Made by a program: the position numbers and the translations under genes
The notes under the pieces: generated by a model
Databases searched by the model: none
What the model was told of the DNA's origin: nothing
The model's input: only the letters and a program-made list of their open reading frames with translations
IMG/VR virus record: IMGVR_UViG_3300012665_000938
Coordinates: 1 to 58,022 of that record
Length of the DNA: 58,022 bases
Strand: one strand, 5' to 3'
DNA from: a virus
Lineage: Duplodnaviria > Caudoviricetes
In this document: positions 601-31,090 of the stretch, one piece after another
How the letters are laid out: the number at the start of each line of letters is the position of its first letter
Position numbering within the stretch: the stretch's first letter is position 1

Positions 601-676
601 GGTAGCGAGTAGTTCAAACGGTAGATGGAACGGTGTACCCGTGTCCGATAGGTGTTCGAGTCACCTCTTGTTACCA
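601..676 (+). ncRNA. Degenerate tRNA-like element (GTA at the anticodon position)
   Basis: 9-bp closing stem GGTAGCGAG/CTTGTTACC, D-like TAGTTCAAACGGTAG, perfect T arm AGGTG-TTCGAGT-CACCT; bulged anticodon arm, broken D stem, short variable region. Confidence 0.6.
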
Positions 677-703
677 CCTATGATTTTAACGATAAGTTTT
701 TAT

Positions 704-775
704 TCCCGCTTAGTTCAGTGGTAGAACGTGTGACTGTTAATCACAATGTCGATAGTTCGAGTCTATCAGTGGGAG
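704..775 (+). tRNA. tRNA-Asn (GTT), CCA not encoded
   Basis: Cloverleaf: TCCCGCT/AGTGGGA acceptor, GTTC/GAAC D arm, TGTGA-CTGTTAA-TCACA anticodon arm, GATAG-TTCGAGT-CTATC T arm, G discriminator. Confidence 0.95.
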
Positions 776-792
776 TTGGAGTATGATTAGTT

Positions 793-1193: not shown

Positions 1194-1442
1194 ATGACTG
1201 GTATTGAAGCATTCCAATCGCTCAAAGACGGCAATAAGGTTCGTCGTAAAATCTGGACACCAGACTGCTACGTTACAGCAGAAGAATACGAAGGTGAGTA
1301 CGAGATTAATCCTGTAGGAACTCAGATATTCATCTATGATGTTCGCTATCTAGGGGTCTTTATACTTGAGCAGATGCTTGAAGATGGAGACCAATGGGAA
1401 GTATTTACACCTTGCACATCTGACAGTAGTGCTGTAGACTAG
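1194..1442 (+). CDS. DUF2829 / Tad2-like small protein
   Basis: N-terminus MTGIEAFQSLKDGNKVRRKIW and C-terminal DQWEV match the DUF2829 pattern; AGGAG RBS. Confidence 0.55.
   Translation: MTGIEAFQSLKDGNKVRRKIWTPDCYVTAEEYEGEYEINPVGTQIFIYDVRYLGVFILEQMLEDGDQWEVFTPCTSDSSAVD
1412..1440 (+). promoter_or_regulatory. Sigma70-like promoter
   Basis: TTGCAC-17-TAGACT; the same -35 hexamer is used at 4878 and 7107. Confidence 0.5.
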
Positions 1443-1445
1443 GTA

Positions 1446-1554
1446 TGTCACCGAGAGGTGATAGAACAAAAAGGAATACTTCAGAAAACCCTTCCTATTG
1501 TTCGGCAAATTAAACTCTGCAAACAGAAGACCAGTCAGCCACACTGGTCTTTTT
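1446..1554 (+). ncRNA. Candidate small RNA A
   Basis: GNRA hairpin TGTCACC-GAGA-GGTGATA, second stem GAACAA/TTGTTC plus AGGAA/TTCCT, ending in an intrinsic terminator. Confidence 0.5.
1527..1554 (+). terminator. Intrinsic terminator
   Basis: AAGACCAGT-CAGCCAC-ACTGGTCTT followed by a T run, between convergent genes. Confidence 0.85.
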
Positions 1555-1559
1555 GCTGT

Positions 1560-1742
1560 CTACTTGCGTAGCACTTTACCTGTGACAATTGACAGGAGTC
1601 TCTTGTGCAACGTATGAATTTCTTCAGCCGATGCGTTGTTGATGTACCCAATGCTATCTTTATTGAAGTCTTTGAAGCCGAAATGCAGGATTAATGCGTC
1701 TCGCATATCTTTACAGTTTTGACGCTTTTGGTCAACAGTCAT
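1560..1742 (-). CDS. Hypothetical protein
   Basis: 60-aa ORF with normal composition ending at the 1527-1554 terminator. Confidence 0.5.
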   Translation of the reverse strand: MTVDQKRQNCKDMRDALILHFGFKDFNKDSIGYINNASAEEIHTLHKRLLSIVTGKVLRK

Positions 1743-1779
1743 AAAACAAAAACCACCCCGGTGCTTATTCAGGGTGGTT
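1743..1779 (-). terminator. Terminator/attenuator directly upstream of the 1742 start codon
   Basis: Minus strand AACCACCC-13 nt-GGGTGGTT followed by TTTGTTTT, then ATG. Confidence 0.65.
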
Positions 1780-2389
1780 CATTTGGCTTGTTGTTTTTAA
1801 CACTCACCTTGCGGTGGCACAGACATTGTACACGAAACACCCTTGCTATCATCCTACATTATTTACCAGTAAACAGTGAATCTTCTACCTGAGTATATAT
1901 TGAACTGAACGGTAGTTGACCACTGTACAACAGAGTGTGTGTATGGAAAATGTTTTTCTGTTATGTTTCTACGTTGGGAGAAAGGTTTAGTAGAGAGAGA
2001 GATTGAGTTGTCTGAGTCCCTCCCCTAAAATACTACGACTGGGGTGGGTGCTTGCCGAGACCCCCCTCTGTATGCCCAGTTTCCCGCCAAAACGGGGTCC
2101 CCAGTGGTGGTAGAACGGGCAATAGTTCTTGTTAGCGGCATATGATTCCCTGCCGTACGCTTTGGTTCACAAGGTGATACCTAGTATGTGACTGTTGATC
2201 ACCCCGGCTATTGGGTGGTATGTAGGTATACGGTATTAGTTATGAAGTGTTAACTAAGTTTTGTGGCGAACATACCGTACCATCTGGTAGACTACGTCTG
2301 TTATGTTGACTACTATAAACTACATCATGAAGGGGACGCAGTCTACTTGCACAGAGTGCAATAGTTTGCAAGTCATAACTAAGTTTAGT

Positions 2390-2419
2390 TTGACAACCCT
2401 TCATACCGTATGGTATAGT
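2390..2419 (+). promoter_or_regulatory. Sigma70-like early promoter
   Basis: TTGACA-18-TATAGT with TGn extension and an ATACC-GTAT-GGTAT palindrome. Confidence 0.7.
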
Positions 2420-2555
2420 ATTCACAACATGAAGGGTGGTACTGATACGGTGAACATACCGGGCGGGTTGGGATTAGTCTACAATAGGCATTATGCTATG
2501 CATGATAACCCTATTCTATGCTACCTGATACCGTGCTGTATGGTACAATCTAGTA

Positions 2556-3107
2556 TTCCCAAACCCTATCGGCTTGACTGTAAAGTCAGGGTACGTATCG
2601 CTTAGGCGATAGGGCAAACGGACTGAAAACGTACGCTGTGGTGAACGTAAGTATGTCCCGATGTAGTACCTGCTGGTAGTCTGCACTTTTATATATTCGA
2701 CGGTCGCATAACACCGGGTAAGTTATGCCATCCATAACAGGGGTTTACTCTGTCTGCGGTGAAGGTTGGGCAGTCGATTGGTGGCATACCCGATAACCTG
2801 AGCGGATGGTAGTAGCCGGTAGTGTAGGAAAGCACTACCAGTACGGGGCGCACTTAGAGGCGCACGTATAATCTGATAAAGGAACCCGGAACATAGGGCG
2901 TAAGTGTCAACTATAGGTCAACGCTATAGGTACGTCTCTGTGCAGACACCTGCAATGCAGTGCAACGGAACGGGATAAGTATGTCAGGTATCTATACACC
3001 AGTACCCAAAGTAAACACTGTTATGGGGGATATGCAATAGAATACGGGGGGATTCTGTCTCCCCGGATATTGCATAGCATAGCGGATTACACGCTAGGTT
3101 ATGCAAT
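2556..3107 (+). ncRNA. Large structured non-coding RNA (~550 nt), family unassigned
   Basis: No credible ORF; TGg-TACAAT at 2541-2549. Nested long-range helices 2732-2748/3011-3026 and 2751-2757/2942-2948, plus many local hairpins. Confidence 0.7.
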
Positions 3108-3123
3108 GTTTACTATATTCTAG

Positions 3124-3153
3124 TTGACAGCATACCGTTTCATACGGTATGAT
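3124..3153 (+). promoter_or_regulatory. Early promoter with perfect palindromic operator
   Basis: TTGACA-18-TATGAT; CATACCGT-N5-ACGGTATG (3131-3151) covers the spacer and -10. Confidence 0.85.
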
Positions 3154-3175
3154 TCTAATCGTGAAGGGGTTCACA

Positions 3176-3364
3176 ATGAAAAAGATTACTCGCAAAGCAC
3201 TTATCGATATAACTATGGCAGATAAAGGGACACTGCCGGGCTGTGGATATGAGCGTCTGGTATTACGCCGTCTGGAGTCTGACGGCTTGACGTGTGATTA
3301 TTACCTTGAGAATGTCGGCGGATATGTCCGGATGCGGACGTATCGTTTTATGTCATTCGCCTAA
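3176..3364 (+). CDS. Early hypothetical protein
   Basis: GAAGGGG RBS before ATG 3176. Confidence 0.75.
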   Translation: MKKITRKALIDITMADKGTLPGCGYERLVLRRLESDGLTCDYYLENVGGYVRMRTYRFMSFA

Positions 3365-3398
3365 TCGTCTCTGTTCGTTATTAGTAAAGGGGTTTACT

Positions 3399-4199
3399 AT
3401 GTCTTATCTCAAGTCTCTGGTTGCAAAGCGTCTCAAGTCGGTCTCTGGTAAGAATGACAACGGGTTCATTCTCTGGGAGGGAGTGTCACAGATTGACGGT
3501 GTCACGCCGGTAGTCTGTATCGTTACAGGTATCCGCAAAGCGTCCGCTAACGGTAAGACGGGAGACCTTATGCAAACGTGGATTCTCATGCAGGATGTCA
3601 ATCCGGCACAGGCAGTCCGTGAGCGGTCAGAGGGTGGAGTGTGCGGGGACTGTGTCCATCGTCCACAGGCTGACGGTAAGCGGTCATGCTACGTCAATAT
3701 GCGAACGCCCGGTAGTGTGTGGCGCAGTTACAAAGCGGGTAACTATGCCCGTCTTGACCCGCAGTACTGGTCATTATTGGGTCATGTTCGAGAAGCGGGT
3801 ATCCGATTCGGTGCATACGGTGACCCCGGCGCAGTCCCTGTCAATGTGTGGCAGTCACTCAAGTCAATCGCTAGGTTTACCACGGGTTATACTCATACGT
3901 GGAGGTACAGTGTTAGTACCTATGCCGATGTCACTATGGCATCATGTGAGACTTTGGATGACTTGCGACACGCTGAGTCACTAGGTTACAAGGCGTTCCT
4001 AGTAGTCAAGGCTGGTGAAGCGAAGGATACCATCGGTGCAGGTATGGCACGATGTCCGTCCGACCCGTCACTAGTCGGGGTACACGTCCCTTGCAGTCAG
4101 TGTCAAGGGTGTAGCGGTGCAACGTCACGCCGTCACCGTGTCATCGAAGTCCACGGTGCGACAGCGCACCAATACCGTCCTCTGCGGATGGCAGACTAA
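3399..4199 (+). CDS. Cys-rich Gp88-like (radical-SAM-like Fe-S) phage protein
   Basis: N.KTG, C-x2-C-x11-CY, IRFGAYGDP, GYTH, CP...CxxCxxC...HG motifs; AAAGGGG RBS before ATG 3399. Confidence 0.7.
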   Translation: MSYLKSLVAKRLKSVSGKNDNGFILWEGVSQIDGVTPVVCIVTGIRKASANGKTGDLMQTWILMQDVNPAQAVRERSEGGVCGDCVHRPQADGKRSCYVNMRTPGSVWRSYKAGNYARLDPQYWSLLGHVREAGIRFGAYGDPGAVPVNVWQSLKSIARFTTGYTHTWRYSVSTYADVTMASCETLDDLRHAESLGYKAFLVVKAGEAKDTIGAGMARCPSDPSLVGVHVPCSQCQGCSGATSRRHRVIEVHGATAHQYRPLRMAD

Positions 4200-7106: not shown

Positions 7107-7135
7107 TTGCACTCTACCGTACAGTGTGGTATCAT
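7107..7135 (+). promoter_or_regulatory. Early promoter cassette
   Basis: TTGCAC-17-TATCAT with TGn, followed by ATATATTGGAGGGGTTCAATG. Confidence 0.85.
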
Positions 7136-11784: not shown

Positions 11785-11794
11785 TGTTTCTACT

Positions 11795-12328
11795 ATGCGG
11801 AGAAACACACCAGAGGCAAGTCTGCAACGTCTAGTTGTAGATACGCTTACACTACTCGGCTACCGTGTCTTTGAGACCGGCAAGTCACGCAGTAAAGTAC
11901 GCTGTACCAAATGTGGTGCATCATCGTACGCTACAGGATGGCAGGGCAACACACCCGGCTTACCTGACTTATACGTCCACTCACGAAGCAAGGGCTGGAA
12001 GTCTATGGCACTTGCCATTGAACTAAAGGCTCAGAAGGGTGTTGTCTCCCCTGTACAGCAAGAGATAGCAGATGCTGGTATGTCTACCATCTGCTGGAGC
12101 CTTGAGGATGTCCTCAATGTACTGCTTTCTGTAGAGGAGAAGAACAACAACTGGCTCGCCGTGGATAAGTTAGTGCGCTTTCAAATGGAGGGATTGAAAT
12201 GGAATACAAAGACACAGGATGTGAGTGCTGGGACTACACGCTCAACAAGGGAGGCGATGACATCGTCTACATTGGAAAAGACGGATTCTACGCCAAAGAA
12301 GTTGTCCATAACGAATGGAGATACGTAG
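11795..12328 (+). CDS. VRR-NUC family PD-(D/E)xK nuclease with Zn-knuckle insert
   Basis: E..LQ..V, GLPDL...AIELKA.KG.VS..Q motifs; CxxC. Confidence 0.85.
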   Translation: MRRNTPEASLQRLVVDTLTLLGYRVFETGKSRSKVRCTKCGASSYATGWQGNTPGLPDLYVHSRSKGWKSMALAIELKAQKGVVSPVQQEIADAGMSTICWSLEDVLNVLLSVEEKNNNWLAVDKLVRFQMEGLKWNTKTQDVSAGTTRSTREAMTSSTLEKTDSTPKKLSITNGDT

Positions 12329-18911: not shown

Positions 18912-19701
18912 ATCTGTAGAGGGAAACCTTCTTAGTTGTAGAGTCAACATCAATTTGTAGATTCTGCCACGAAGCGAACTCACGTATAGGAACCATCAAT
19001 CGTCCTTGAATCAGAACTGTGTTACAAGGAACCTTCTCTTCATCCCAATAAGGAATGGAGTCGAACGTCAAACGAACTTTAGTTACTTCACCATATATGG
19101 CTTCAAGACATTGACGAAGACCTGCGTACAGCCGACCATCGTGCGATACAGCAGTTACTTCATCTGGTCCAATATCAACTGTCCACGCAACCGTAGACAA
19201 AGTATCCTCTTCATACAGGTCAGACCATCTAAGGAAAACAATAGATGACTTAGAGCGACCTGTGTACATATCAGTGCGCTCAACAACCTTAGTGCCGTTA
19301 CGGCTACCGTCTGTGTTGCTGTTGCCTTCAATGGATGAGTAGACACCGTCCTTGAGTCCAGACACAAGCAAGATGTGTACTGCATCATTCTGGTTCTTGC
19401 GATTGAGGATAAGACCAATGTCACCTACCTCAGGTGTAGTGTGTACAATCTTCAGTTTCCTGCCACGTGCAAGCCATAGGTCACAGTCGGCAGACAATCC
19501 TAGATACCAATCCTTACCAGTCATATACTTCCAACGATTGGCTACTGCACTCATGTATGATGCACACCAGAAACTACCCACTGGTACGCCAACCGCCTTA
19601 TTCCAAACGTCGATGTGGAATCCCCGGTTGCTTCCTTCCGGGGACTCTGTCGTGCCAACCCACTCTCGTGCGATGTCAATGAACCGTTGTTTATTGGACA
19701 T
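18910..19701 (-). CDS. CHAP-domain endolysin with C-terminal copper-amine-oxidase-N (stalk)-like domain
   Basis: A...VG..E...GSN...WCA catalytic Cys, P.VGD, H, IEGN; C-terminal GRLMVPIREFA. GAGGAG RBS before ATG 19701. Confidence 0.85.
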   Translation of the reverse strand: MSNKQRFIDIAREWVGTTESPEGSNRGFHIDVWNKAVGVPVGSFWCASYMSAVANRWKYMTGKDWYLGLSADCDLWLARGRKLKIVHTTPEVGDIGLILNRKNQNDAVHILLVSGLKDGVYSSIEGNSNTDGSRNGTKVVERTDMYTGRSKSSIVFLRWSDLYEEDTLSTVAWTVDIGPDEVTAVSHDGRLYAGLRQCLEAIYGEVTKVRLTFDSIPYWDEEKVPCNTVLIQGRLMVPIREFASWQNLQIDVDSTTKKVSLYR

Positions 19702-22700
19702 TACGTGCTTGCTCCTCAAAGAACTCGTCTTCATCTGCTCCAAAGATTGTATATTCCCATCCGGGGACAGGATTATCATTGTCATTCGCTTTATACTGCC
19801 ACTTCAGTTCTTTTGGCGAATATCTCACACGACCACCTAGGAATGCTAGGGCTGCGACTGCACCTGCTTCTGCACCGGGGTACTGTCCACCACGACCAGA
19901 GACTGAATCGTATGTATCCATAGCATCCTGCGCCCACAGGTAGAAGAGTCTGTCAGCGACAAGGTTACTTAATTTAGGAGCAGGAAGGTCTATACCCATC
20001 TCAAGGAGAGCAGGGCGTGTTACTGCATTCCAATATGTCTGTAATGGTTTGTATGTTTCACGTGATGGCTCACCGATGATATTACGTCCAGTAATCATGT
20101 CGTTAGCCAGAGATACAGCAGGTGATGCTTTACTCATAATCAACATCTTCAACTGGTCGGCAGTACGAGTTAATCTTTCTTCAGATGACTCACCCGGCTT
20201 AGTCTCAAGTCCACCTATAAGCGTACTCATAATTTCCATCTGGTACATAACTCCACCCGGAGCCTTGAAGACGTAGTCTCCAACTCGGATGGAAGAACCG
20301 AGTCCCTTGACTTCAACTTCAGTTCCGTGTTCACCGAATGGATTGAATCGGCTAAGAAGGAATCCGATGAAGGCAAACATACCAGCGGACTTCATGAACA
20401 GACGATTGTTCTCTGCACGTACGTATGGGTCAATGACTCCATATCGCTTGTACAGACGGTTCAACTCTAGTAACTTAGTACCCTTCTCTGGTGAGAATGT
20501 CGTGTACACAGAACGTAGGATTGGGTCGAACATGAAGCGACTTGCAAGCCACCGTGGTGCGAACATCAGGTTACGTAGGTTGCTTCCGATGAGGTCATCC
20601 ATCTCCTTGTCACTGGAGAACTTTACGTCACCCTGCGCTACGTTCAACATACCTGCAAGGTCTTTTGCAACCTCAGTAAACTTAGATGACTTAGGGTTGT
20701 ATCCAATCTCAATGTAGTGTTGCATACCTTGAGTAAACTTCATCATCTTGATGTAGTCTTTGGTCATCGCCATCGTTCGCTCAGATGCACCCTGTAGTGG
20801 TTGATGCTTCAGAAGTTGATGTGTAGGTGACAAGTCCTTGTCAACACCTAACTCATCAACATTCATAATCGTTGCACGTGGGTCTTTCTTACGGAGTTCA
20901 GCGAGACGCTCATCAATACGGTGTGTATTAAGTGTAAGACCCGCTTCAACTCCCAGTTCGTAGAATGGGTTACTGCGAAGTTCGTCACCGAGTTTATGGA
21001 ACTCCTCACGACCGAGCATTCCATTCTGATTGATGATTGTTCCATCTGGCTTTTGATAACCTAGGTTAGGCTTCATCATCTTCAGTCCAATCATGAACTG
21101 ATGTGCGAACAACTTAGGATTCTCAATCGGGTTAGCAGTTACCCAGTTCTGAATCAAGATTGCAGACCAGTCACCTCCCACACTGTTACGTGCTAGGTCA
21201 TTCACGAAGCCGTATGGCTTCATTACCCAGTCAGTTATCTTGAGTGCTTCTTTGACCTTAGATGGGACTTCTGCTGGGTCTTGTGTTCGGACTACCTTCA
21301 CAGTTCCATCATCGTCAACTGTTGTTACTTCACGTACTGGTGGCTTGACTGGACGTGCAGACCAGAGAGTCTTGTACGTGTTAGTAGTTGGAGCCTCCAT
21401 AGGTTTACCGTATGGGTTGTACATAGCAGTAGGAGTACCTAGAGAAGACGGAGCGTGTGTACGCACTTCTTTTTCAGGCTCGTAATGCTCGAACAACTTA
21501 GATGCATCGGTCTCATATTCAAGGATTCCGATGCTCCTGTTCATCAACTCTTCTTTACTAAGACTAGCAAGTTTTCCTGAACTCGCAGGGAAGATAGTTG
21601 TAGCAGGTAGACCTAGTGCTTCATAGTTCAACTCAACACTAGCCAGCGTTTCGACTGCACTTATACGTAAGCCACCGCCAGCATCCAACAACTCCTTAGT
21701 GTTCTCCCACCTATCATTAATTGCTTCTCGTGTATAAGCCTTTGACTTCCACTGAGCATATGCAATAGCGTATACAGGATTGACTCCAGTTGTATCTTTA
21801 ACGGATTGAGGTGCTTTGTTGTTTGCAAGCCAGTTCATAGTTGCTGATAGTTTCGTAGAAACTTCTGGGTCACGCCTACGGAACGAAGGCATATATGTTT
21901 CAATCTCACCTATAGCATCATAGTAGTTGTCTATAACCAGTTCATCTGGGTGTTGCATTCGAGCATTAGTCATCATCAATATGTCAAGCCCGTGATTGTC
22001 ATTGATGAGTTCTTCAACCATCGACTTGTATTCAGATGGGACAGACTTATTGTCGATTCCAGACATACGTCTTATTCGGTCATTGATAAACGACTTACCG
22101 GGGTCCTTAGTCGTAAGTGCAAGTTTAACCCTACGAGTAGCAGCACTTCTCCACGTATCAAGTTCCTTGCTATCAATAAGCACGTTACGAAGATTACTTG
22201 CAACCTTTGCAATGTCAACTGCATAGTCAAAACTATAGGTAAGAGATACTACTGCTGGCGTACCACCTAGACCCTCACCTTCATTTTCACCTTGTCTGTG
22301 AACTAACGTATCGTCCATATTTCCATTTCGTCGAGATATGGTATTTGCGGATACAAGACTTCCATCAGTGATATTAATCAAGGCATTGGATGCGTGATAG
22401 AGTTTTGCCTTTCCATTGACTGGATTAACAACAGGCTTGTTATTAACATCTGTAATGTCATCAAGTCGCTGGATGTAAGCCTTTACATATGAGCCTAGCG
22501 TAACATTTGCAGTACGAGAACCTTCATCTAATACATCTAGTTCTTGAAGTGCTTTGACACCAGCCCTTCTGTTTCCAGTAATGTTCACCTTAGCAAGCAC
22601 TGCTTCCATTAGGTACTCAACCATATGGTCACGGTTATCGCCGAACATCTGGAATAAAGCAGAATTCCTATTAGACATTTGATTGACAATGTCAGGGATG

Positions 22701-25700
22701 ATTTCCCAATCATTGTCGTTGGTGAATATTTTCTCTGCTGCTACATCTGGTGACTCATGTGTATTGAAGTCTCTTGACCTTAGACCACCATACTGTGACC
22801 ACGACTGGGCATCACGCTTACGTGCGCTGAACAGTGTTACACCACGTCCACTAGCAAGTGTTGCAGGCGAGAACGAGTTATTACTATCAGTAATCTTCAG
22901 GTGACCAAACTGATTGTTAGCATCTTTGTAGATAGTATCGATGCGCTTGTCAACACCAACTACACCCGTCTTGATTGCATCAAGCGGTGGTAATCCAGTC
23001 TTGCGAGAATCCTTTGAAGAGAAGGTACTGTAGGCACTTCTACCAATAGTTTCAGACCACATACCCCAGATAGCCATTGGGTCTTGAGTAATAGACGCAT
23101 GAGCAGCAAAGGCTAGGTTATGTGAATGCTCACCACCAGATACAACCTGCACGTTTGCACGTATAGACTGATAGATAGCATCAATGACTTCAGAGTGCTT
23201 CAGTGGCTTTCCGTCAATAGTAGTAATGCCACTGTTCTGTAGTAATGGATTGTATGGGTCAACACGTGTATCTGGCTGGATAATAACCTTAGATGCACCA
23301 CGTGAATCAGGGAATCCAACTGTCAGTTCAAGGAACTTAAACTGCTTTGGTAGTTCCTTTATAAGTGCCGGATAAACCTTCTTGCTATCAGTGTTTGATA
23401 TGAACGTATCAGGCAACTTATTAAACTGATTACCAGCCTCAGTCCAACGCTCAAGCGTATCTGGAGCAACATTCATATCAAACTTAGCCGGTAGGTTAAC
23501 CGTCTTGCCACGAACAGCAGACAATGCACCTTCAATGGTTTGCCGAATCGTTACATCGAACTTAGGATTCGGGTCTACTCCGAAGAGGTTTGGTGCGGAG
23601 ATATTAAGGACATTACGCGCTTCATCGTAGTTGATGGCATACCCCCGACCATTTTCATTTCCGAAATTCCAGAGCCTTTCAGTAGACTGGACACCTTGAA
23701 CTGGAATATCTGCTTCAATGAATTTATCTGCGACTTGCTTAATGGCTTTACCGAAACTTTCGAGCGAGCCTTCATAGGACTTTCCTCTTTCCTCAAGATG
23801 GGTCATTGTCACAGACTTACGGTCTGGACTAATACGAATTGCAGGATACTCTTTCCGGATTGATGAATACACATCATCCGTAATTGCATCCGTTGAAGTG
23901 AATGTGATTGATGGCTCAACCGAATAACCCTTGTCGCTATACCCTAAAGGCTCAGTCTTGCCAGCCTGTGTATGTAGCAACAGGTTATCGATACCATTGC
24001 GTTGAACGAAGTCCAGTGCCTTCTTCAATGAACCGAGTGTGTCGGTTGCGTCAATGGTTCCATCAACAACAAGAACGTCATTGATTTCCAACGTACGAAT
24101 ATCAGCAGTCCCATCGAATGTACGATGTGCATCCGCAACTACACGGTCATCAACGAACTGCTTGATTACATCTCGTGGCACACCATCGTATGTTGCGTAA
24201 TGAGCAAATGCTTCAGGTGTTATCGAATGTGGATTAGAGTTACCTGCTATTCTCTGTGCTGCTTCTTTACGAAGTGTTGCGTCAGCACCACGTCTCCGAG
24301 ACTGGTACAGGACATTGCCTCCTGTGTTTCCAGCCCCACGTTGAGCATTCGATTGTCTCTCACGATTCTGTAGTTCCAGCGTACCCGTGTAGGTTTCAAG
24401 AGACTGGATAGTATTTGCGAGGTCTTTGAGTCCTGCTCTTGTCCATTCAAGTGTGTTGAGTTTGGATGTTTTTCCGCTGGCATCTTTATATGTATATTCC
24501 TTGAGGAATTGTCCCTCACGAAGTGAACCAACGATATTAATCCACTGGTTATAATCAGTATGACTTACGTCATTAGGTATGTTTGTTATGAGACCGTAAT
24601 TCAATGCACGGTTGGCAGCAGACATCGTACGGTTACTGAGACCTAGGAGATAACCCTTCCACTCAGTACTAGTCCGCTCCATACCATCCTTGTCCAACTT
24701 GATTATCTTGTCAACAAACGGAATAACACCATCCTTTGAATCGGTAATCCTATCTAGAAGACCAGATGGATTATCCTTCATGAGTCGTTCATTGGTATTG
24801 GTGTATGTTCCACGAAGACCAATGATAGGCGTTCGCACCTTTGTTGAGGAGTCAGTCTGTGTGCTGTAACCACTGACCCACTTGACCATCATTGAGCCTA
24901 ATTTAGGACTCATACCCTGAGTGATTCCACCTACACTAATAATCTCAGATGGCATAACAACTGTAGAGCCAAATGCATTCGCATTCTTAGTATCTGTGGT
25001 GATGATTGCTGAACTTACTGGGTCAAGTAATTCAACTGTAACCATAGGCTCATGAATCATACTGTCAGGAATAAGACCCGGACCCTTAGGCTTCTCCTTA
25101 GTCTTCAACACAGTTGCACGAACAAGTTTGCCGTCTATCTGAAGAGTTACTGGGATACCATCCCAAAGGAATACATTGTTATTGTCGTAAGGAACAGACC
25201 ACTCAAGGCGATTAGCCCTCCAGTTGACATGACCAGCAGCGTCCTTGAATCCATAGGTCTCTGCATATGCCTTCTGCATAAAACCACTTATCTTGCCCCA
25301 GATGTCATTAAGTCTAGCCTGACCAGATGCTGCACCACGCAACGATATAGGAGGTGTTCCACTGAGGAATGACTGTTCCATTGCGGTTGCAAACATCTCG
25401 TGCAACTCATATGGGATGTAAGACTCATTGAGTTTAGTTGGCTTACGTAGTGTCTTACCAAAGCGGGTGGCAAGTTCACTAGCCATATGCACAGGCATAT
25501 TGTCTAAGATTGCATGACTAATCTCGTGTACGGTAGTTCCGATATCAGAGTTGTTAGCCATAACGAATACAACCTGCTGACCTGCGTTTGTTCGCTCGTC
25601 AACAATAGTCGTGTATCCACCACGCTTCTCGAATATGTTGTCGTAGGCACTGTCCAACTTAGGACCGGCATCAATAACCTTGAACACAGGGATGTTCGTC

Positions 25701-28700
25701 TTGTACCTGTCGGCAACCATCTTCATGCGGACACGCTCTATGATGCTACGCCGTGCGTCATCACCAGTGATGTCCTCAAAAGTAAGACCCTTAGGTACGA
25801 AGTACTCTCCGCTTAATTGATTATAAAGAGTTGCAGATGAAGATGCCTCTGAATCAATAGCCTCCATAATGCTGTTGATGCGTGGCATATCGTATTGCTG
25901 TATCAATGCAGCAGCACGATTACGCCGTAGAGCAATCTTCTTTGCAGCCTTACTTAGGTTGTCGCTTATTGGCTCTGGGGAAAGAGGCTGTCGGCTTTCA
26001 GCCTGTGTTTTACGCTCTACAGGAATGATTGCTTCAACATCCTGCATTACCAACTGCGCTACGTACAAGTCACGATTTACAAAAGCGTGAATCATTTCAT
26101 CGTAGTAAGCAGCAACAGCCTTTGCAGCAGTAGTGGAATCAGCGTCACCCTTTACCTGACCACTGCGTACAAGCACATCCTTTAAAACAACTTCAAGTTC
26201 TTGACGATTCCTTGCCTTTGCAAGTACTTCATTGATATCGCCAACACCTTCTACAGATGCACGAATGCGAACAAGCGAGTCACCTTCAGCAACTGTTACA
26301 TCACCGGGCTGGACATTCTCAAGGTAACTTCCTTCATCTACTGCTTCAATGTCACCTTCAGCAATCATTGTCTCTTGAGTAGGAGTGAGTGTTACTCCTG
26401 CTTCAGCGAATACATCGAGTGCAACATCTGGAACGAATGAACCATCAGACACAATGTCGGCTGGTGTCATCTCACGTACTTCAAAGCCAGTTGATTCTGG
26501 TGCTACCTCTGCGGTTGAAGCCTCAGTAAATGCTTCAGGCGTAACAGGTACTACAGGTGCAGTAGTCTTACGAGCATCATATGAATCCCACTCACCACGT
26601 AATCTGCGTAGTTCATTTGTAATACTTGTTGTAGATAAACCACTGTCACGGGAAGCACCAGTAATTACGCTATTAATCCTGTCAAGGATTGGCTTAAACT
26701 TACCAGCACCAGAACTACCTGCCCTAGGAGTTGTATTGTATGTACTTAGTTCTGTGAAGAAGATATTGTCGGTATGTGGCAATTCTTCTTTAGGTATTGT
26801 CATGAAGTCTGGGTCATTAGTTTGCAGACTTCTGAGGTCACCATAGTAATTGTTTAAAAGGTCTGAACCATCCCGTAATTCCTGTTGACCATACGAATCA
26901 AGGATGTTCCTACTTGAACTCTTGTTTAACCAACCATCTGAACCAAAGCCAAAGAATGGATACCACTTACCGGGAAGAACAGCCTCACCAGTAGTTGCAT
27001 CAACCTTAGGGTTTTCACCGGAACTAAGATAGTAAAGAACATCCTGACCCTTGATATTAAGAATAGTAATAAATCGTCCACTGTGACCTACTACTTCAGG
27101 TATTCCAGTAACGCCATCAGTACGCTCAAGGTCAACAATCGCTGGTCCAGTAATCTGCGGGAACTGTTGAATAGCAACGTCTGGACTTAACTGAAGTTCA
27201 GGTCGGATGGCAACTACACCCGGATTGTCCATCGTTGTTACAGTTGATGGTGTGACCTGTGGCTCGGCTACTACAGGAGCAGGAGTTACCTCTGCCTCTG
27301 GTGTAGCAGTAGTTGGAGTTGCACCCTCCTGTGGGGTCGCTGTTGGCTCAACCTGAGCCTCAGCAGTAGCAGGGACTATAACTTCCTCATTGACCGCTTC
27401 ATCGACCTTAGCGAGAGCATCATCAATGTTCCTACGTAATCCCTCTGCTGTGTCAGGTCGCTCATTGGTTACAGGATTGACATCACGATTAATGAAGTCA
27501 ATCTGTGGAGTTACTTTTCCTTGAAGGCGATATGCAACTCTAGGGACCTGTACATCACGAACATCACCAATGGTGTTGTCAAGATACTTAGATACAGCAC
27601 CTAAGTCAGGAGACCCGTAATAACTAGTAATCTCTGCGCCACTAGTCTTGTTGAACCAACCACTCATTGGGTCGATGCCGAATACTGGATACCACTTGCC
27701 GGGTGGAACATCAGTCTTTCCACCGTATCCAGTGGATAGGTAGAACGGAATGCGAACACCGTTGATATCAGCGACTACGATTTTACGACCAGAGAAGTCT
27801 AAGATAATAGATTTACCACGAGTCTTGTTTAGCGTACGCTTTCCAGTTGCTGGGTCAATCTCATCACTAAGAGTTGCGGTCTCATAAGGAATCTTAGGAA
27901 ACTCAACTTCAACGCCATCGATGACAACGCCATCCTTGAGGCGATTCTCAATCTGCGCCTTGCTGGTAGCACGTGTCTTACGTTGCAGTGGTTGGATGTT
28001 CTGCGTATCTGGCTCAAGTGTAATCTCAGGCTTTACACTTGCAGGTGCTTCAGGATTGACAGTTCGCTTACGTCTTTGTTTTACAGTCTTAGGTGGAGCA
28101 GGTGTAACATCTGCCTCAGACTCAGCAACTACATCAGGGACAGTAGGTGTAGGCGTTGGAGCCGTAGCCTTGCGCTTACGTCCAGTCCTACGTGCAACAT
28201 TCTCTTCAGTAGTTGTAGGTGTAACTACTGGTTCAGCCTTGCGAATCTTCTGCATTGGAACAGAGGTCTTAAGGATAGAAGACTCTTGTACAATGAATGC
28301 GGGTTTGGTGGGTGCATCGGCATCAACGACCACTGGTCCGTAGGGTGAGTTGTCTACAACTACACCCATTCGGGATTGACCAGATGCATCCACGAACTCA
28401 ATCAGAGTTCCTTCATCAAAGGCATACTCTGCTTCTGCTCTAGTAGCAGCCAGCATCTCATTCGTTGCTGCCTTGATAGACGCATCAGCCTTAGCCTTGA
28501 TATTCTTAGCACTCTCACCAGCAGTGGCTAGGTCTCGCTTCTTATCAACAATCAGAGTCCTTGCACGTTCAGCACGTGATGCTTGCTCTGGTGTGAGCAA
28601 CATAGGATGATTCAAGTCCTTAGTCGTTACACGGTCAGCCGTTGCACGAATAGGACTATGGAACTCTTTATCTACAGTGTAGTTCGATGGGTCGTATGCA

Positions 28701-31090
28701 GGAATCGTACGAGTGTCGTAGATAGTTTGTGGTTGACCCATACGTTCTACGTTGACGTTAGGTACGACAATCATATCAACGCCAGACGTAGGTGATGGCA
28801 ACTGCATCACAACGTGATTCTCATCTACCTTAGAGACAATACGTCCGGGGACAAGAGTATCACCCATCCAGAACTCATTCTGGAAGTTGTTCTTCAGTTC
28901 AGGATTACTTAGGGTCTGAAGGTCAAAGTTCTTTAGGATGTCACGCTGTACGTCTGACTTTACATAACCAGTGGTATCGGATGGCTTGATACCAAACTCC
29001 TGCATTGCACTAAGTGCTTTCTTCTGATTAGCAGGGGCAAGGGTATCAACACTAACTGTGTTATACGTTGATGTTCCATCAGGTCGGATTACATTAATCT
29101 TAGCGAAACCGTCATCAGTGAAGCCAGCCAACTGCTCGAAGGAATCTCCAACTTTCTCAGCCTTTAGTGCTGCTGGTCCTTTGACGAATTCTTTTACACG
29201 TGCGAACGTACCTGCATCAGGTGCAATACGTGAAACGGCGTTGTATACATTATCTCGTAGGTCAAGGTCACTAGGACCCTTACCCATACGAATATCAAGG
29301 TAGTCACCGGGCAGGTCGTTGACAGACTTAACTGTAGAAGTAAAGCCTTCACGATTAATCTTTGCAATCCGACCACGTCCCATTGGAATGATGTTCTGTG
29401 GTAGTTCAAGACGCTCAGTTACATCAGTCCTGCCAGCGGTAGGAACATTGCCAGTAGGCATTCCCGGAGTAACCTTTGAAGGTACATTTGTAGGAGTTTT
29501 AAGTTGACCTAGTGGACCAAATGTAGGTGTTGTAGTGTCACCTATCGCACGTAATCCAGCCTCACCAATTGCATTACCAGCCTTACCAGCAACATCAAAC
29601 AACCGACCCGCTGGTCCACGTCCTTCAAAGAGTGAACCAAACAATGTCTGTGCCATTATCTGGTAGAGAGGAGTCTCTGGTCTGCCTTCAAGTTTATCTT
29701 TCTCTCGCTGTGCAATTGCTTGACGCAAGTCAGTCATGCCTTCAATACTGCGTTCTGCAATATCAGACATAAACTCTTGACCTTCAGCACTACGTGTGAA
29801 TCCACGAACACCACCACGTGCAATATCAAGATTTAACTTCTGTCCAGCCTTAGATGTAATAGCACCTTCAAGAGTCCCATCAACAAAGTTGTAGAACTTT
29901 GAGTTGGATATACGACCTGCCATTCCTGTTAGTGGAGCGGAAGGAACTATTGACTTTGGATTGATACCAGCATTAATAAGCGCACGTTCAGCACGTGCAA
30001 TATTTGCACCAGTCTTGCCAGCAGCAAGACCACCCTTTAATAAAGTCAGACTAGGAAGTGTAGGTGTTGCAACTGCAAAGTTTGCAGCCATTTGCCCACC
30101 TATTGCACCATATGGGTTTGCAGCCGTTGCTTCAGCCATCTGACGCTTACGTGCTGCGTAAACATCATCACCTAAGATAGCCTTCTTGACTGATGCCTGA
30201 CCCTTCTGAGCCAACTCTGTAGCGTAGTAAGCAGTTGGCATACCGACTGCTATAGCAGCAGCAGCAGGACCTAATCCAGCAGTGAATGGTGCAGTAGGAG
30301 CAGCAAGTGTAGCAGCAGCACCACCAGTTAAGATACCTGCGCCAGTACCTATGACAGATGGAAGTACACTCTCTTCAAGGGTCTGCCCAAAAATACCTGC
30401 TTGCTCTACACCTAAAGCAAATGGATTATCAAGTTCAGGTTGCTTGTATGTATAAACCTTACGAGCAATCTCATCTGCTGATACACCAGCACCACGCATG
30501 ACTGCTGCTTGCATATCTTTGGATGCACCAACAAATGGAGCAGCCATTGCACCAGCAGTAAGACCCATTAATGTACCGGGCTTGAATAGTGCAGATTGAC
30601 CACGCTTCTGCTCAATGTCTCTTGCTTGCGTTTGGATAGCAGGAGCAATCTGCTCCTTAAGTTTTACACGCTGAGAGATAACGTCAGATAGGTTTGACTC
30701 TGCACCTAGAGAACGACCAGTGAAGATGGGACCATTAATGTCACCACCTTCCATAAGACCGCCGGTTTTCTTTTGAAGGTCGAACGGACTAAGTTGAGTA
30801 GTCCGCTTAATCTTGACTTCTTTACCATTCTGAATGACAGGAACTTCAACTGTCTTAGTAATGGGTTGACCTTGTTGGTCAAGAACAGGAATCTTCTGAA
30901 TGGCTTGTATGCGCTGGTCTGCAACGCCACGGTATGTCTTAGCCTCAGAATCACTAAAGAAGCCTTGAGCCTTACCGTACTCAATGCCCCTGCGATAGAT
31001 ACCTAAGAGATTTGTATCTAAGAATGTGCGGTCATCTTCCGACAGTTCTTTGATTAACCTACGAAACCTATCTTTAGGGGCTTCAGCCAT
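19691..31090 (-). CDS. Giant internal virion / large polyvalent protein
   Basis: 3,799 aa, last of three ejected-type genes; Gly/Ala hydrophobic N-terminal segment, HEISH zincin motif, duplicated domain, ART-like motifs. Confidence 0.8.
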   Translation of the reverse strand: MAEAPKDRFRRLIKELSEDDRTFLDTNLLGIYRRGIEYGKAQGFFSDSEAKTYRGVADQRIQAIQKIPVLDQQGQPITKTVEVPVIQNGKEVKIKRTTQLSPFDLQKKTGGLMEGGDINGPIFTGRSLGAESNLSDVISQRVKLKEQIAPAIQTQARDIEQKRGQSALFKPGTLMGLTAGAMAAPFVGASKDMQAAVMRGAGVSADEIARKVYTYKQPELDNPFALGVEQAGIFGQTLEESVLPSVIGTGAGILTGGAAATLAAPTAPFTAGLGPAAAAIAVGMPTAYYATELAQKGQASVKKAILGDDVYAARKRQMAEATAANPYGAIGGQMAANFAVATPTLPSLTLLKGGLAAGKTGANIARAERALINAGINPKSIVPSAPLTGMAGRISNSKFYNFVDGTLEGAITSKAGQKLNLDIARGGVRGFTRSAEGQEFMSDIAERSIEGMTDLRQAIAQREKDKLEGRPETPLYQIMAQTLFGSLFEGRGPAGRLFDVAGKAGNAIGEAGLRAIGDTTTPTFGPLGQLKTPTNVPSKVTPGMPTGNVPTAGRTDVTERLELPQNIIPMGRGRIAKINREGFTSTVKSVNDLPGDYLDIRMGKGPSDLDLRDNVYNAVSRIAPDAGTFARVKEFVKGPAALKAEKVGDSFEQLAGFTDDGFAKINVIRPDGTSTYNTVSVDTLAPANQKKALSAMQEFGIKPSDTTGYVKSDVQRDILKNFDLQTLSNPELKNNFQNEFWMGDTLVPGRIVSKVDENHVVMQLPSPTSGVDMIVVPNVNVERMGQPQTIYDTRTIPAYDPSNYTVDKEFHSPIRATADRVTTKDLNHPMLLTPEQASRAERARTLIVDKKRDLATAGESAKNIKAKADASIKAATNEMLAATRAEAEYAFDEGTLIEFVDASGQSRMGVVVDNSPYGPVVVDADAPTKPAFIVQESSILKTSVPMQKIRKAEPVVTPTTTEENVARRTGRKRKATAPTPTPTVPDVVAESEADVTPAPPKTVKQRRKRTVNPEAPASVKPEITLEPDTQNIQPLQRKTRATSKAQIENRLKDGVVIDGVEVEFPKIPYETATLSDEIDPATGKRTLNKTRGKSIILDFSGRKIVVADINGVRIPFYLSTGYGGKTDVPPGKWYPVFGIDPMSGWFNKTSGAEITSYYGSPDLGAVSKYLDNTIGDVRDVQVPRVAYRLQGKVTPQIDFINRDVNPVTNERPDTAEGLRRNIDDALAKVDEAVNEEVIVPATAEAQVEPTATPQEGATPTTATPEAEVTPAPVVAEPQVTPSTVTTMDNPGVVAIRPELQLSPDVAIQQFPQITGPAIVDLERTDGVTGIPEVVGHSGRFITILNIKGQDVLYYLSSGENPKVDATTGEAVLPGKWYPFFGFGSDGWLNKSSSRNILDSYGQQELRDGSDLLNNYYGDLRSLQTNDPDFMTIPKEELPHTDNIFFTELSTYNTTPRAGSSGAGKFKPILDRINSVITGASRDSGLSTTSITNELRRLRGEWDSYDARKTTAPVVPVTPEAFTEASTAEVAPESTGFEVREMTPADIVSDGSFVPDVALDVFAEAGVTLTPTQETMIAEGDIEAVDEGSYLENVQPGDVTVAEGDSLVRIRASVEGVGDINEVLAKARNRQELEVVLKDVLVRSGQVKGDADSTTAAKAVAAYYDEMIHAFVNRDLYVAQLVMQDVEAIIPVERKTQAESRQPLSPEPISDNLSKAAKKIALRRNRAAALIQQYDMPRINSIMEAIDSEASSSATLYNQLSGEYFVPKGLTFEDITGDDARRSIIERVRMKMVADRYKTNIPVFKVIDAGPKLDSAYDNIFEKRGGYTTIVDERTNAGQQVVFVMANNSDIGTTVHEISHAILDNMPVHMASELATRFGKTLRKPTKLNESYIPYELHEMFATAMEQSFLSGTPPISLRGAASGQARLNDIWGKISGFMQKAYAETYGFKDAAGHVNWRANRLEWSVPYDNNNVFLWDGIPVTLQIDGKLVRATVLKTKEKPKGPGLIPDSMIHEPMVTVELLDPVSSAIITTDTKNANAFGSTVVMPSEIISVGGITQGMSPKLGSMMVKWVSGYSTQTDSSTKVRTPIIGLRGTYTNTNERLMKDNPSGLLDRITDSKDGVIPFVDKIIKLDKDGMERTSTEWKGYLLGLSNRTMSAANRALNYGLITNIPNDVSHTDYNQWINIVGSLREGQFLKEYTYKDASGKTSKLNTLEWTRAGLKDLANTIQSLETYTGTLELQNRERQSNAQRGAGNTGGNVLYQSRRRGADATLRKEAAQRIAGNSNPHSITPEAFAHYATYDGVPRDVIKQFVDDRVVADAHRTFDGTADIRTLEINDVLVVDGTIDATDTLGSLKKALDFVQRNGIDNLLLHTQAGKTEPLGYSDKGYSVEPSITFTSTDAITDDVYSSIRKEYPAIRISPDRKSVTMTHLEERGKSYEGSLESFGKAIKQVADKFIEADIPVQGVQSTERLWNFGNENGRGYAINYDEARNVLNISAPNLFGVDPNPKFDVTIRQTIEGALSAVRGKTVNLPAKFDMNVAPDTLERWTEAGNQFNKLPDTFISNTDSKKVYPALIKELPKQFKFLELTVGFPDSRGASKVIIQPDTRVDPYNPLLQNSGITTIDGKPLKHSEVIDAIYQSIRANVQVVSGGEHSHNLAFAAHASITQDPMAIWGMWSETIGRSAYSTFSSKDSRKTGLPPLDAIKTGVVGVDKRIDTIYKDANNQFGHLKITDSNNSFSPATLASGRGVTLFSARKRDAQSWSQYGGLRSRDFNTHESPDVAAEKIFTNDNDWEIIPDIVNQMSNRNSALFQMFGDNRDHMVEYLMEAVLAKVNITGNRRAGVKALQELDVLDEGSRTANVTLGSYVKAYIQRLDDITDVNNKPVVNPVNGKAKLYHASNALINITDGSLVSANTISRRNGNMDDTLVHRQGENEGEGLGGTPAVVSLTYSFDYAVDIAKVASNLRNVLIDSKELDTWRSAATRRVKLALTTKDPGKSFINDRIRRMSGIDNKSVPSEYKSMVEELINDNHGLDILMMTNARMQHPDELVIDNYYDAIGEIETYMPSFRRRDPEVSTKLSATMNWLANNKAPQSVKDTTGVNPVYAIAYAQWKSKAYTREAINDRWENTKELLDAGGGLRISAVETLASVELNYEALGLPATTIFPASSGKLASLSKEELMNRSIGILEYETDASKLFEHYEPEKEVRTHAPSSLGTPTAMYNPYGKPMEAPTTNTYKTLWSARPVKPPVREVTTVDDDGTVKVVRTQDPAEVPSKVKEALKITDWVMKPYGFVNDLARNSVGGDWSAILIQNWVTANPIENPKLFAHQFMIGLKMMKPNLGYQKPDGTIINQNGMLGREEFHKLGDELRSNPFYELGVEAGLTLNTHRIDERLAELRKKDPRATIMNVDELGVDKDLSPTHQLLKHQPLQGASERTMAMTKDYIKMMKFTQGMQHYIEIGYNPKSSKFTEVAKDLAGMLNVAQGDVKFSSDKEMDDLIGSNLRNLMFAPRWLASRFMFDPILRSVYTTFSPEKGTKLLELNRLYKRYGVIDPYVRAENNRLFMKSAGMFAFIGFLLSRFNPFGEHGTEVEVKGLGSSIRVGDYVFKAPGGVMYQMEIMSTLIGGLETKPGESSEERLTRTADQLKMLIMSKASPAVSLANDMITGRNIIGEPSRETYKPLQTYWNAVTRPALLEMGIDLPAPKLSNLVADRLFYLWAQDAMDTYDSVSGRGGQYPGAEAGAVAALAFLGGRVRYSPKELKWQYKANDNDNPVPGWEYTIFGADEDEFFEEQARNVQ

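What the first reader, a model, noticed from the sequence alone, without database searches (positions are those of the whole stretch)
2556..3107. ~550-nt ornate non-coding RNA at the front of the early region
Seen: no credible ORF in an otherwise fully packed genome, with an extended -10 just upstream. Long-range helix CCATAACAG..GTTTAC (2732-2748) pairs with GTAAAC.CTGTTATGG (3011-3026), and TGTCTGC (2751-57) pairs with GCAGACA (2942-48) nested inside it. Local helices: CTTGACT-GTAA-AGTCAGG, GTACGT/ACGTAC enclosing TATCGC-TTAG-GCGATA, GCATAAC/GTTATGC, AGGTT/AACCT, GGTAGTG/CACTACC, and TATGCAATA/TATTGCATA enclosing CGGGGGG/CTCCCCG. Known: large phage RNAs such as ROOL and GOLLD occur near phage tRNA clusters, and their functions are unresolved. 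I could not match it to RNase P, tmRNA, or group I/II introns. Inference: a divergent member or a new class of large phage RNA made immediately after injection, upstream of a Cys-rich Fe-S-like protein.
Basis: partly seen in the sequence, partly recalled or inferred. Interest (0 to 1): 0.9.

Follow-up and report, generated by a model that had tools for sequence, protein, structure and literature searches.

The report
Candidate structured early RNA, freshwater phage
A roughly 550-base stretch without genes, sitting behind early promoters of an uncultivated lake phage, probably makes a folded non-coding RNA, but the evidence is moderate, it matches no known RNA family, and it is found only in very close relatives.

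Summary
The sequence observation holds. Window 2556-3107 has no credible ORF.

The fold-energy signal is uneven:
- Whole region: z -3.47.
- 3' hairpins, 3028-3125: z -6.83.
- 2556-3030: z -1.34.
- 5' part, 2556-2698: z -0.81.
- Central domain, 2728-3030: z -2.6. Coding windows of this genome average -0.92, sd 1.12.

No Rfam family matches, even at E<=10, so this is not ROOL, GOLLD, HEARO or OLE. Homologues exist only in near-identical strains and, partly, in one 76%-related lineage. None of 18 related phage records has it.

One diverged natural haplotype gives the only covariation test. It shows six compensatory pairs against a null mean of 1.3-2.5 (P 0.008-0.025). Its structure-conservation index is 0.76 against 0.61-0.70 (P 0.01).

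Against this, the single-sequence fold is poorly kept in that haplotype, and one listed helix is broken in all four runs laid. No RNA data exist.

Verdict: a plausible new lineage-restricted structured early transcript, not proven. Interest is moderate.

The parts
2390..2419 (+). Near-consensus sigma70-like promoter (TTGACA-18-TATAGT, TG before the -10). Its spacer holds an ATACCGT..GGTAT palindrome. It points into the region.
   Evidence: 11 of 12 hexamer matches; operator-like pattern, 8 matches against 1.87 expected, all on the + strand.
2528..2549 (+). Operator-like palindrome plus extended -10 (TGG-TACAAT, 2541-2549). The inferred transcript start is about 2556.
   Evidence: There is no good -35, and the start site is inferred, not measured.
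2556..2698 (+). 5' module. It has local hairpins (2573-2590 with a GUAA loop; 2596-2611) and a weak hairpin at 2662-2685 followed by CUUUUAUAUAUU.
   Evidence: Fold z -0.81. The terminator-like hairpin has only -8 kcal/mol. The module is identical in the X1 contig, whereas sequence after about 2690 is about 13% diverged. One X4 contig replaces 2552-2698 by 146 other letters, but its left anchor is only 25 letters, so this is weak.
2699..3030 (+). Central domain closed by the long-range helix 2732-2748 / 3011-3026. It includes hairpins 2706-2728, 2818-2839 and 2911-2929 and a variable-length arm at 2763-2800.
   Evidence: z -2.62. Long-range pair probability 0.79. Compensatory pairs 2706/2728, 2764/2790, 2915/2925, 2916/2924, 2866/2997 and 2736/3022. 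SCI 0.764 against null 0.614 and 0.703.
3045..3065 (+). Hairpin A: G+C-rich 9-bp stem containing one or two G.U pairs.
   Evidence: -15.4 kcal/mol, z -3.05. In L089 the stem is kept and three loop letters differ.
3066..3110 (+). Hairpin B: 13-bp outer stem (3 G.U pairs) plus a 5-bp inner stem, followed by a U-rich tail. ATTGCATA (3069-3076) can pair either with TATGCAAT at 3031-3038 or with the copy at 3100-3107.
   Evidence: -24.1 kcal/mol, z -6.92. Three copies of the 8-mer or its complement lie in 3031-3107. In L089 the arms are conserved and the inner stem gains a pair through a one-letter insertion.
3124..3153 (+). Promoter of the first early gene: TTGACA-18-TATGAT with the perfect palindrome ATACCGT-TTCAT-ACGGTAT.
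   Evidence: Conserved in L089.
3176..3364 (+). First early gene (62 aa), the downstream boundary of the non-coding stretch.
   Evidence: A homologous ORF is present in L089. Other strains carry a different sequence from 3175 on (loose ends in X2 and X3).

Best explanation
The stretch is a non-coding transcription unit in the early region of an uncultivated freshwater tailed phage. The proposed mechanism, step by step:

1. Host RNA polymerase starts at the operator-bearing promoters at 2390 and 2541-2549 and transcribes the + strand (inferred).
2. The 3' two-thirds of the transcript (about 2699-3110) folds into a multi-helix domain closed by a 15-bp long-range helix. Structure conservation is shown at modest significance.
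3. The transcript ends in two very stable hairpins just before the next promoter at 3124 (hairpins shown).
4. These hairpins most likely stop or pause transcription and protect the 3' end. The result would be a stable stand-alone RNA of roughly 400-550 nt, rather than a leader of the first gene, which has its own near-consensus promoter (inferred).
5. A trans-acting role in early host takeover or counter-defence is a guess. It rests only on position: behind early promoters and near a Tad2-like gene and two tRNA genes.

The element belongs to no described RNA family.

My confidence that some conserved RNA structure exists here is about 0.55. My confidence that it is a separate trans-acting RNA is about 0.3.
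For: - Non-coding: plus indels in the variant that keep no reading frame.
- Promoters: two sites with 11 of 12 hexamer matches at 2390 and 3124 and an extended -10 at 2541-2549. The operator-like palindrome is enriched, with 8 matches against 1.87 expected and 0 of 100 shuffles reaching 8.
- Fold energy: 2699-3112 z -4.36; 3028-3125 z -6.83; 2728-3030 z -2.62.
- The + strand folds better than the - strand: -192.6 against -166.1 kcal/mol, z -3.47 against -2.70. Hairpin B holds 3 G.U pairs that would be A.C on the other strand.
- Maintained in nature: Logan contigs of 4 of 4 runs laid cover parts of the stretch at about 91-98% identity.
- L089, whose neighbouring protein is 76% identical, keeps hairpins A and B at 91% column identity. 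The longer aligned block 3048-4193 is 70% identical.
- Covariation, window against the X1 haplotype over 2691-3030: RNAalifold finds 6 double-compensatory pairs. The nulls give means of 1.32 (P 0.008, 1 of 120) and 2.53 (P 0.025, 3 of 120).
- SCI without the covariance term is 0.764. The nulls give 0.614 sd 0.045 and 0.703 sd 0.023; 1 of 100 random variants reached the real value in each.
- The paired alleles 2736/3022 and 2706/2728 go together in every haplotype where both sites are read.
Against: - No transcript evidence of any kind. No listed run is on record as RNA.
- The 5' 475 nt is not better folded than shuffles (z -1.34). The 5' module gives z -0.81.
- The central domain's z lies within the range of coding windows of this genome (2 of 36 at or below -2.6).
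- The fold predicted from the window alone is poorly kept in the variant. In the centroid, 7 of 12 affected pairs are broken.
- The variant's own folding energy is no better than that of random mutants (P 0.155 and 0.52; 0.63 and 0.68).
- All covariation comes from one haplotype group. It is a composite of X1 contigs. Two of 37 substitutions of the main contig are not listed, as are most of those after 2988.
- The SCI signal is equally strong on the minus strand (0.748, P 0.00 and 0.03). It therefore does not prove RNA rather than DNA hairpins, and it does not give the strand.
- No canonical intrinsic terminator was called inside 2556-3110.
- The element is absent from 18 of 18 related records.
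Confidence: 0.45

Rival explanations
1. Cis-acting leader or attenuator of the early operon. Transcripts from the 2390 and 2541 promoters read through into gene 3176. The three-copy element (TATGCAAT at 3031, ATTGCATA at 3069, TATGCAAT at 3100) would switch between a 1:2 pairing and the 2:3 hairpin B. The large domain closed by the helix that ends at 3026 would act as a sensor, as in a riboswitch or T-box-like leader.
For: The alternative pairing is in the sequence. The closing helix of the central domain ends 4 nt before element 1. No canonical terminator separates the region from gene 3176.
Against: A near-consensus promoter with its own operator sits between the hairpins and the gene, so the gene does not need read-through. 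No riboswitch, T-box or leader model matches at E<=10. No ligand or partner can be named. Element 1 cannot be checked in L089, because that contig ends at the place matching window 3048.
Confidence: 0.2
2. An ordinary mosaic intergenic spacer. The hypervariable early-region junction would have collected promoter copies, insulating or terminating hairpins and relics of lost cassettes. Only the 3' hairpins and the promoters would be functional, and there would be no dedicated RNA function.
For: - The whole 1443-3175 stretch is ORF-poor and differs between strains by replaced blocks: joints at 2218/2343 and 2551/2699, loose ends at 2218 and 3175, and a mosaic break near 2690.
- Contigs of relatives end here: G001 at about 1854 and L089 at 3048.
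- 2739-2755 is a 16-of-17 copy of the ribosome-binding site and start of gene 3399, with ATG replaced by CTG (family D16).
- Core z-scores are unremarkable.
- The promoter cluster at 2201-2600 is more structured (z -4.2 and -5.0) than the core of the finding.
- The element is absent from all more distant relatives.
Against: The compensatory changes and the raised SCI are not expected from unconstrained spacer DNA. The stretch is kept at about 91-98% identity in contigs from 4 of 4 runs laid. No translated remnant of a gene was found.
Confidence: 0.25
3. A DNA-level element, such as a collapsed direct terminal repeat, a packaging or entry region, or single-strand DNA hairpins. The inverted repeats would act in DNA rather than in RNA.
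For: - The window is a permuted map. G001 runs from window 58022 straight into window 1, so the true ends are unknown.
- In run X1 the 841-letter contig over 2178-2988 has depth 134. Its flanks have 64 on the left and 80 (33 + 47) on the right. Roughly doubled depth is what a collapsed terminal repeat would give.
- The structure-conservation signal is the same on both strands.
Against: Doubled depth is equally explained by several strains sharing this block while their flanks split into separate contigs. Contigs of X2, X3 and X4 bridge 2966-2988. Contig ends of relatives fall at different places. Pairs 130-290 nt apart (2866/2997, 2736/3022) are more natural in RNA. Replication-initiator and helicase genes lie 12-15 kb away.
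Confidence: 0.08
4. A divergent member of a described large RNA family (ROOL, GOLLD, HEARO, OLE, RNase P, tmRNA, or group I/II introns).
For: Only general likeness: a size of about 400-550 nt, phage origin, lake metagenomes, and two tRNA genes 1.8 kb upstream.
Against: Rfam release 15 was scanned on both strands. There were 0 matches in 2540-3130 at E<=10. In 1800-3600 the only match was a chance miRNA hit outside the region. At gathering scores the window gave only a tRNA. ARAGORN found no tmRNA.
Confidence: 0.02

Closest known systems
ROOL and GOLLD large ornate RNAs. For these I saw only a search listing and the abstract of bioRxiv 10.1101/2024.12.08.627333 and the listing of PMC5737381.
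   Same: Several hundred nucleotides long, non-coding, function unknown, associated with phages or prophages, and (for GOLLD) with lake metagenomes. tRNA genes lie in the wider neighbourhood.
   Different: No covariance-model match at all. The element is restricted to one species-level clade plus, partly, one related lineage. The excess of structure is much weaker and is concentrated at the 3' end. The tRNAs are 1.8 kb away, with two protein genes in between.
Phage-encoded early small or non-coding RNAs and promoter-proximal RNA elements, for example phi29 pRNA made from the leftmost early promoter and the HK022 put antitermination hairpins. These examples are recalled, not from a call.
   Same: Position directly behind early host-polymerase promoters. 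A hairpin-rich transcript. Sequence diverges fast while some pairs are compensated.
   Different: No homology was tested or found with either example. This phage has a large terminase, so a pRNA-type packaging role is not expected. The put elements are about 70 nt, not 400-550 nt.
Leaders with terminator/antiterminator switches (riboswitches, T-box). General knowledge.
   Same: A large domain closed by a long helix, followed at once by a sequence that can pair in two mutually exclusive ways.
   Different: No family match. There is no canonical U-tract terminator. An independent promoter lies between the element and the gene.

Membership tests
ROOL / GOLLD / HEARO / OLE (Rfam large RNAs) | A match to the family covariance model (sequence plus structure). 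| tested here: not met
   cmscan of all 4227 Rfam 15 families, both strands. At gathering scores the whole window gave only a tRNA. At E<=10, 1800-3600 gave one chance miRNA hit outside the region. At E<=10, 2540-3130 gave 0 matches.
ROOL / GOLLD | Wide distribution, with many covarying pairs across diverse genomes. | tested here: not met
   0 of 18 related phage records hold it. 0 of 5 complete relatives match by blastn or nhmmer. INPHARED gave no match. Viral and genome pattern scans gave no match.
tmRNA / RNase P / group I and II introns | A match to the family model, or an ARAGORN tmRNA call. | tested here: not met
Structured non-coding RNA (generic) | Folding energy beyond dinucleotide shuffles. 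| tested here: inconclusive
   Whole region z -3.47. 3' hairpins z -6.83. 2556-3030 z -1.34. 2556-2698 z -0.81. Central domain z -2.4 to -2.6 against a genome background of -0.92, sd 1.12.
Structured non-coding RNA (generic) | Compensatory base changes in homologues. | tested here: inconclusive
   6 compensatory pairs against one diverged haplotype, P 0.008 and 0.025. SCI P 0.01. Limits: one comparison only, a composite and incompletely listed variant, and 7 of 12 affected pairs of the single-sequence centroid broken.
Structured non-coding RNA (generic) | A discrete transcript with defined ends. | not testable with these tools
   No run on record as RNA holds the stretch. The runs laid are DNA contigs.
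Intrinsic (Rho-independent) terminator, at 2662-2697 and at hairpin B | A G+C-rich stem followed directly by a U run. | tested here: inconclusive
   The consensus scan called neither site. 2662-2685 has only -8 kcal/mol but is followed by CUUUUAUAUAUU. Hairpin B has -24.1 kcal/mol but an A+U-rich stem and an interrupted U-rich tail.
Protein-coding gene or pseudogene | An open frame, family match or translated homology. | tested here: not met
   plus indels that keep no reading frame.

The most novel reading that the evidence does not exclude
A previously undescribed, lineage-restricted large structured RNA of about 400-550 nt, made from operator-controlled early promoters of a freshwater phage. 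It would be built of exchangeable modules and would act in trans during host takeover or against a host defence. That would make it a fast-evolving functional analogue of ROOL or GOLLD, not a relative of them.
Probability: 0.3. Interest if true: 0.65.

Novelty: new variant of a known kind. Interest (0 to 1): 0.45.

Why it matters
The functions of large structured phage RNAs are an open question. Most known examples were found because they are widespread. If this element is a real early RNA, it would show that phages also carry narrow, rapidly exchanging large RNAs in the same hyperplastic early region that holds counter-defence genes. It would also offer a promoter-defined unit that could be tested once a host is known. 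If it is only a spacer with insulating hairpins, it is ordinary phage architecture.

Tried and rejected
**N4-like reading (my own early idea, dropped).** I first read the ATACCG...GGTAT repeats as hairpin promoters for a virion RNA polymerase. The 3798-aa protein has no Pfam, PHROG or PDB match. The promoters fit sigma70 consensus.

**Decayed gene (rejected).** The PHROG profile of the neighbouring 266-aa protein matches only the profile's C-terminal half. However, homologues are 230-300 aa long, and no translated likeness was found upstream.

**CsrA-type sponge (rejected).** GGA occurs 11 times against about 7 expected from the genome rate, which is not a notable excess.

**Analogous region in relatives (not found).** The early regions of G005-G012 are not syntenic. 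Only G005 has a gap of about 500 bases at a comparable place, and its sequence is unrelated. Rfam at gathering scores found only tRNAs there.

**Searches for more homologues that gave nothing:**
- INPHARED by blastn and by tblastn with a neighbouring large protein.
- Viral contigs with two exact patterns.
- Genome contigs with the protein and with one pattern.
- The metagenome scan gave only L089, which is cut inside hairpin A.

**Other blanks and steps not taken:**
- No RNA holder was listed among the 20 runs found.
- Parts of the stretch have no cover in single runs. These are not used as evidence.
- A covariance model of the 3' hairpins was prepared (alignment A1) but not built. Two nearly identical rows would only have found what blastn had already missed.
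- Earlier notes of this scan added context only.
- Supplementary files of papers were not needed.

Full report
**Setting.** The window is a 58,022-base IMG/VR virus record, classed linear and 93% complete. It is a tailed phage with portal, large terminase and DnaB-like helicase, and with Erf, Gam-like and O-like initiator proteins. It also has a 3798-aa protein without any Pfam, PHROG or PDB match. It has no match in INPHARED by DNA or by one large protein. Runs that hold pieces of the stretch are mostly lake-water metagenomes: 20 runs in 17 studies, with a best share of 0.46. The map is permuted. A related contig (G001) runs from window 58022 straight into window 1 and stops at about 1854. 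Plus-strand early genes run from 3176 to about 18.2 kb, and late genes lie on the minus strand.

**The observation.** The stretch is non-coding for four reasons:
- The longest ORFs inside are 56, 54 and 49 aa on the minus strand. The longest stop-to-stop frame is 68 aa.
- 0 of 6 frames hit PHROGs at E<=1.
- A six-frame comparison with 669 kb of related loci matched only L089, and in all frames, so the likeness is at DNA level.
- The indels of a natural variant do not keep a reading frame.

The genome is not otherwise fully packed. 1443-2302 and 11785-12198 are also ORF-poor.

**Context.** Two near-consensus sigma70-like promoters lie at 2390-2419 and 3124-3153, each with 11 of 12 hexamer matches. 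Their spacers hold an ATACCGT..ACGGTAT palindrome. This palindrome occurs 8 times at up to 3 mismatches, against 1.87 expected, always on the + strand and always in the early region. At 7114, 7573 and 10054 it sits in promoter cassettes directly before genes. So 2556-3107 lies behind two promoters and in front of a third. Transcription is inferred from this alone. No RNA run holds the stretch.

**Folding energy.** The whole stretch gives z -3.47 on the + strand and -2.70 on the - strand. The signal is uneven:

| Stretch | z-score | Call |
|---|---|---|
| 3028-3125 | -6.83 | 52 |
| Hairpin B | -6.92 (-24.1 kcal/mol) | 74 |
| Hairpin A | -3.05 (-15.4 kcal/mol) | 74 |
| 2699-3112 | -4.36 | 63 |
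| 2728-3030 | -2.62 (or -2.40) | 50 (65) |
| 2556-3030 | -1.34 (8 of 100 shuffles as good) | 51 |
| 2556-2698 | -0.81 | 62 |

Thirty-six coding windows of the same length average -0.92 (sd 1.12), and 2 of the 36 are at or below -2.6. The promoter cluster at 2201-2600 scores -4.2 and -5.0. Energy alone therefore supports the 3' hairpins strongly, the central domain weakly, and the 5' part not at all.

**Known families.** Rfam 15 gave nothing. Only a tRNA reached gathering score in the window. A chance miRNA hit outside the region was the only match at E<=10 in 1800-3600. There were no matches at E<=10 in 2540-3130. ARAGORN found two tRNAs (Tyr and Asn, 603-776) and no tmRNA.

**Relatives.** The terminase finds 259 relatives in IMG/VR, of which 80 were kept. 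None of the 18 largest records holds the stretch; two 14-letter chance hits at E of about 0.45 are all that appeared. blastn with short words and nhmmer found nothing in five complete relatives. Their early regions are not syntenic. The one metagenome scan gave L089, with the protein 76% identical. Its contig ends at the place matching window 3048. In the 79 aligned columns, hairpins A and B are 91% identical. Three letters of the hairpin A loop differ, and the inner stem of hairpin B gains a pair by an insertion. The longer aligned block 3048-4193 is 70% identical.

**Strain variation.** Logan contigs of four runs cover parts of the stretch at about 91-98% identity. The 841-letter X1 contig (2178-2988) has no listed difference between 2220 and 2690. 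It then has 34 substitutions and 25 deleted letters between 2691 and 2956. In all, 35 of its 37 substitutions and all of its gaps are listed. This points to a mosaic break near 2690. One X4 contig replaces 2552-2698 by 146 other letters, but its left anchor is only 25 letters long and falls in a repeated promoter motif, so I give it little weight.

**Covariation tests (one haplotype).**

Against structure:
- On the fold predicted from the window alone, the variant breaks 7 of the 12 affected centroid pairs.
- The variant's own energy is no better than that of random mutants (P 0.155 and 0.52; 0.63 and 0.68).

For structure:
- RNAalifold on the window plus the variant over 2691-2988 finds 4 double-compensatory pairs. 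The nulls average 1.39 and 1.79 (P 0.047 and 0.067).
- Over 2691-3030 I added the three changes and one deletion shared by both X1 contigs there. This gives 6 compensatory pairs: 2706/2728, 2764/2790, 2915/2925, 2916/2924, 2866/2997 and 2736/3022. The nulls average 1.32 (P 0.008) and 2.53 (P 0.025).
- The structure-conservation index without covariance bonus is 0.764. The nulls give 0.614 (sd 0.045) and 0.703 (sd 0.023), and 1 of 100 reached the real value in each.
- The same index on the minus strand is 0.748 (P 0.00 and 0.03). The signal says that pairing is kept, but not on which strand or in which molecule.

The plus strand is preferred because of the promoters, the lower energy and the three G.U pairs in hairpin B. 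All of this rests on one comparison with a composite, incompletely listed haplotype.

**Reading.** I think it most likely (0.45) that this is a non-coding early transcript with a conserved fold in its 3' two-thirds. It would end at hairpins A and B just before the promoter of the first gene and so form a unit of its own. Its function is unknown. A trans-acting role in takeover or counter-defence is suggested only by position, near a Tad2-like gene (Pfam E 4.3e-6) and two tRNAs. The rivals are:
- a cis leader or attenuator using the three-copy TATGCAAT/ATTGCATA element (0.2);
- a plain mosaic spacer in which only the hairpins and promoters are functional (0.25);
- a DNA-level element such as a collapsed terminal repeat (0.08), suggested by the doubled depth of the X1 contig;
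- membership of a known family (0.02).

**Novelty and score.** If real, it is a new, lineage-restricted variant of the known kind 'large phage non-coding RNA of unknown function'. It is not a member of ROOL or GOLLD; for those I saw only the listing and one abstract. The narrow distribution, weak core energy signal and lack of any RNA data keep the interest at 0.45.

Noticed in passing
window 603-776: Two tRNA genes, Tyr (GTA) and Asn (GTT). From memory, both anticodons belong to the queuosine group cut by some anticodon nucleases, so they might replace host tRNAs that have been cut.
   Followed up: no
window 1194-1439 and 793-1176: An 82-aa protein matches the Pfam family Tad2-like (Thoeris anti-defence 2) at E 4.3e-6, 27.6 bits against a cut-off of 25. 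Its neighbour weakly matches DUF5872. This looks like a possible counter-defence island upstream of the finding.
   Followed up: no
window 2201-2600: The promoter and operator cluster upstream of the finding folds better than the finding's core does (z -4.22 and -5.04 in 300-nt windows). It contains roughly 125-nt tandem units (families D3 and D10) and a CATGAAGGG/CCCTTCATA inverted repeat across the 2390 promoter (I2).
   Followed up: partly
window 2739-2755 versus 3388-3404: A 17-nt copy (16 of 17 letters) of the ribosome-binding site and start of gene 3399, with CTG in place of ATG (D16). It may be a relic of a lost gene cassette. It overlaps the 5' strand of the long-range helix.
   Followed up: partly
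window 2178-2988 in run X1: The contig over this block has depth 134. The flanks have 64 on the left and 80 (33 + 47) on the right. Either several strains share the block, or it is a collapsed repeat such as a terminal repeat.
   Followed up: no
window 58022 / 1: The ends of the record are an artefact of assembly. The related contig G001 reads straight across them.
   Followed up: yes
window 3175 onward: The first early gene differs between strains. X2 and X3 contigs leave the window sequence right at the start codon (loose ends at 3175). The promoter and hairpin B before it are conserved.
   Followed up: partly
window 19691-31090 (-): The 3798-aa protein has no match in Pfam, PHROGs or PDB sequences. 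Relatives carry giants of 3483-5205 aa.
   Followed up: partly
window 3399-4199: The Cys-rich 266-aa protein matches only positions 272-522 of the 529-position profile phrog_2554 and has no Pfam hit. Some homologues carry PF23872.
   Followed up: no
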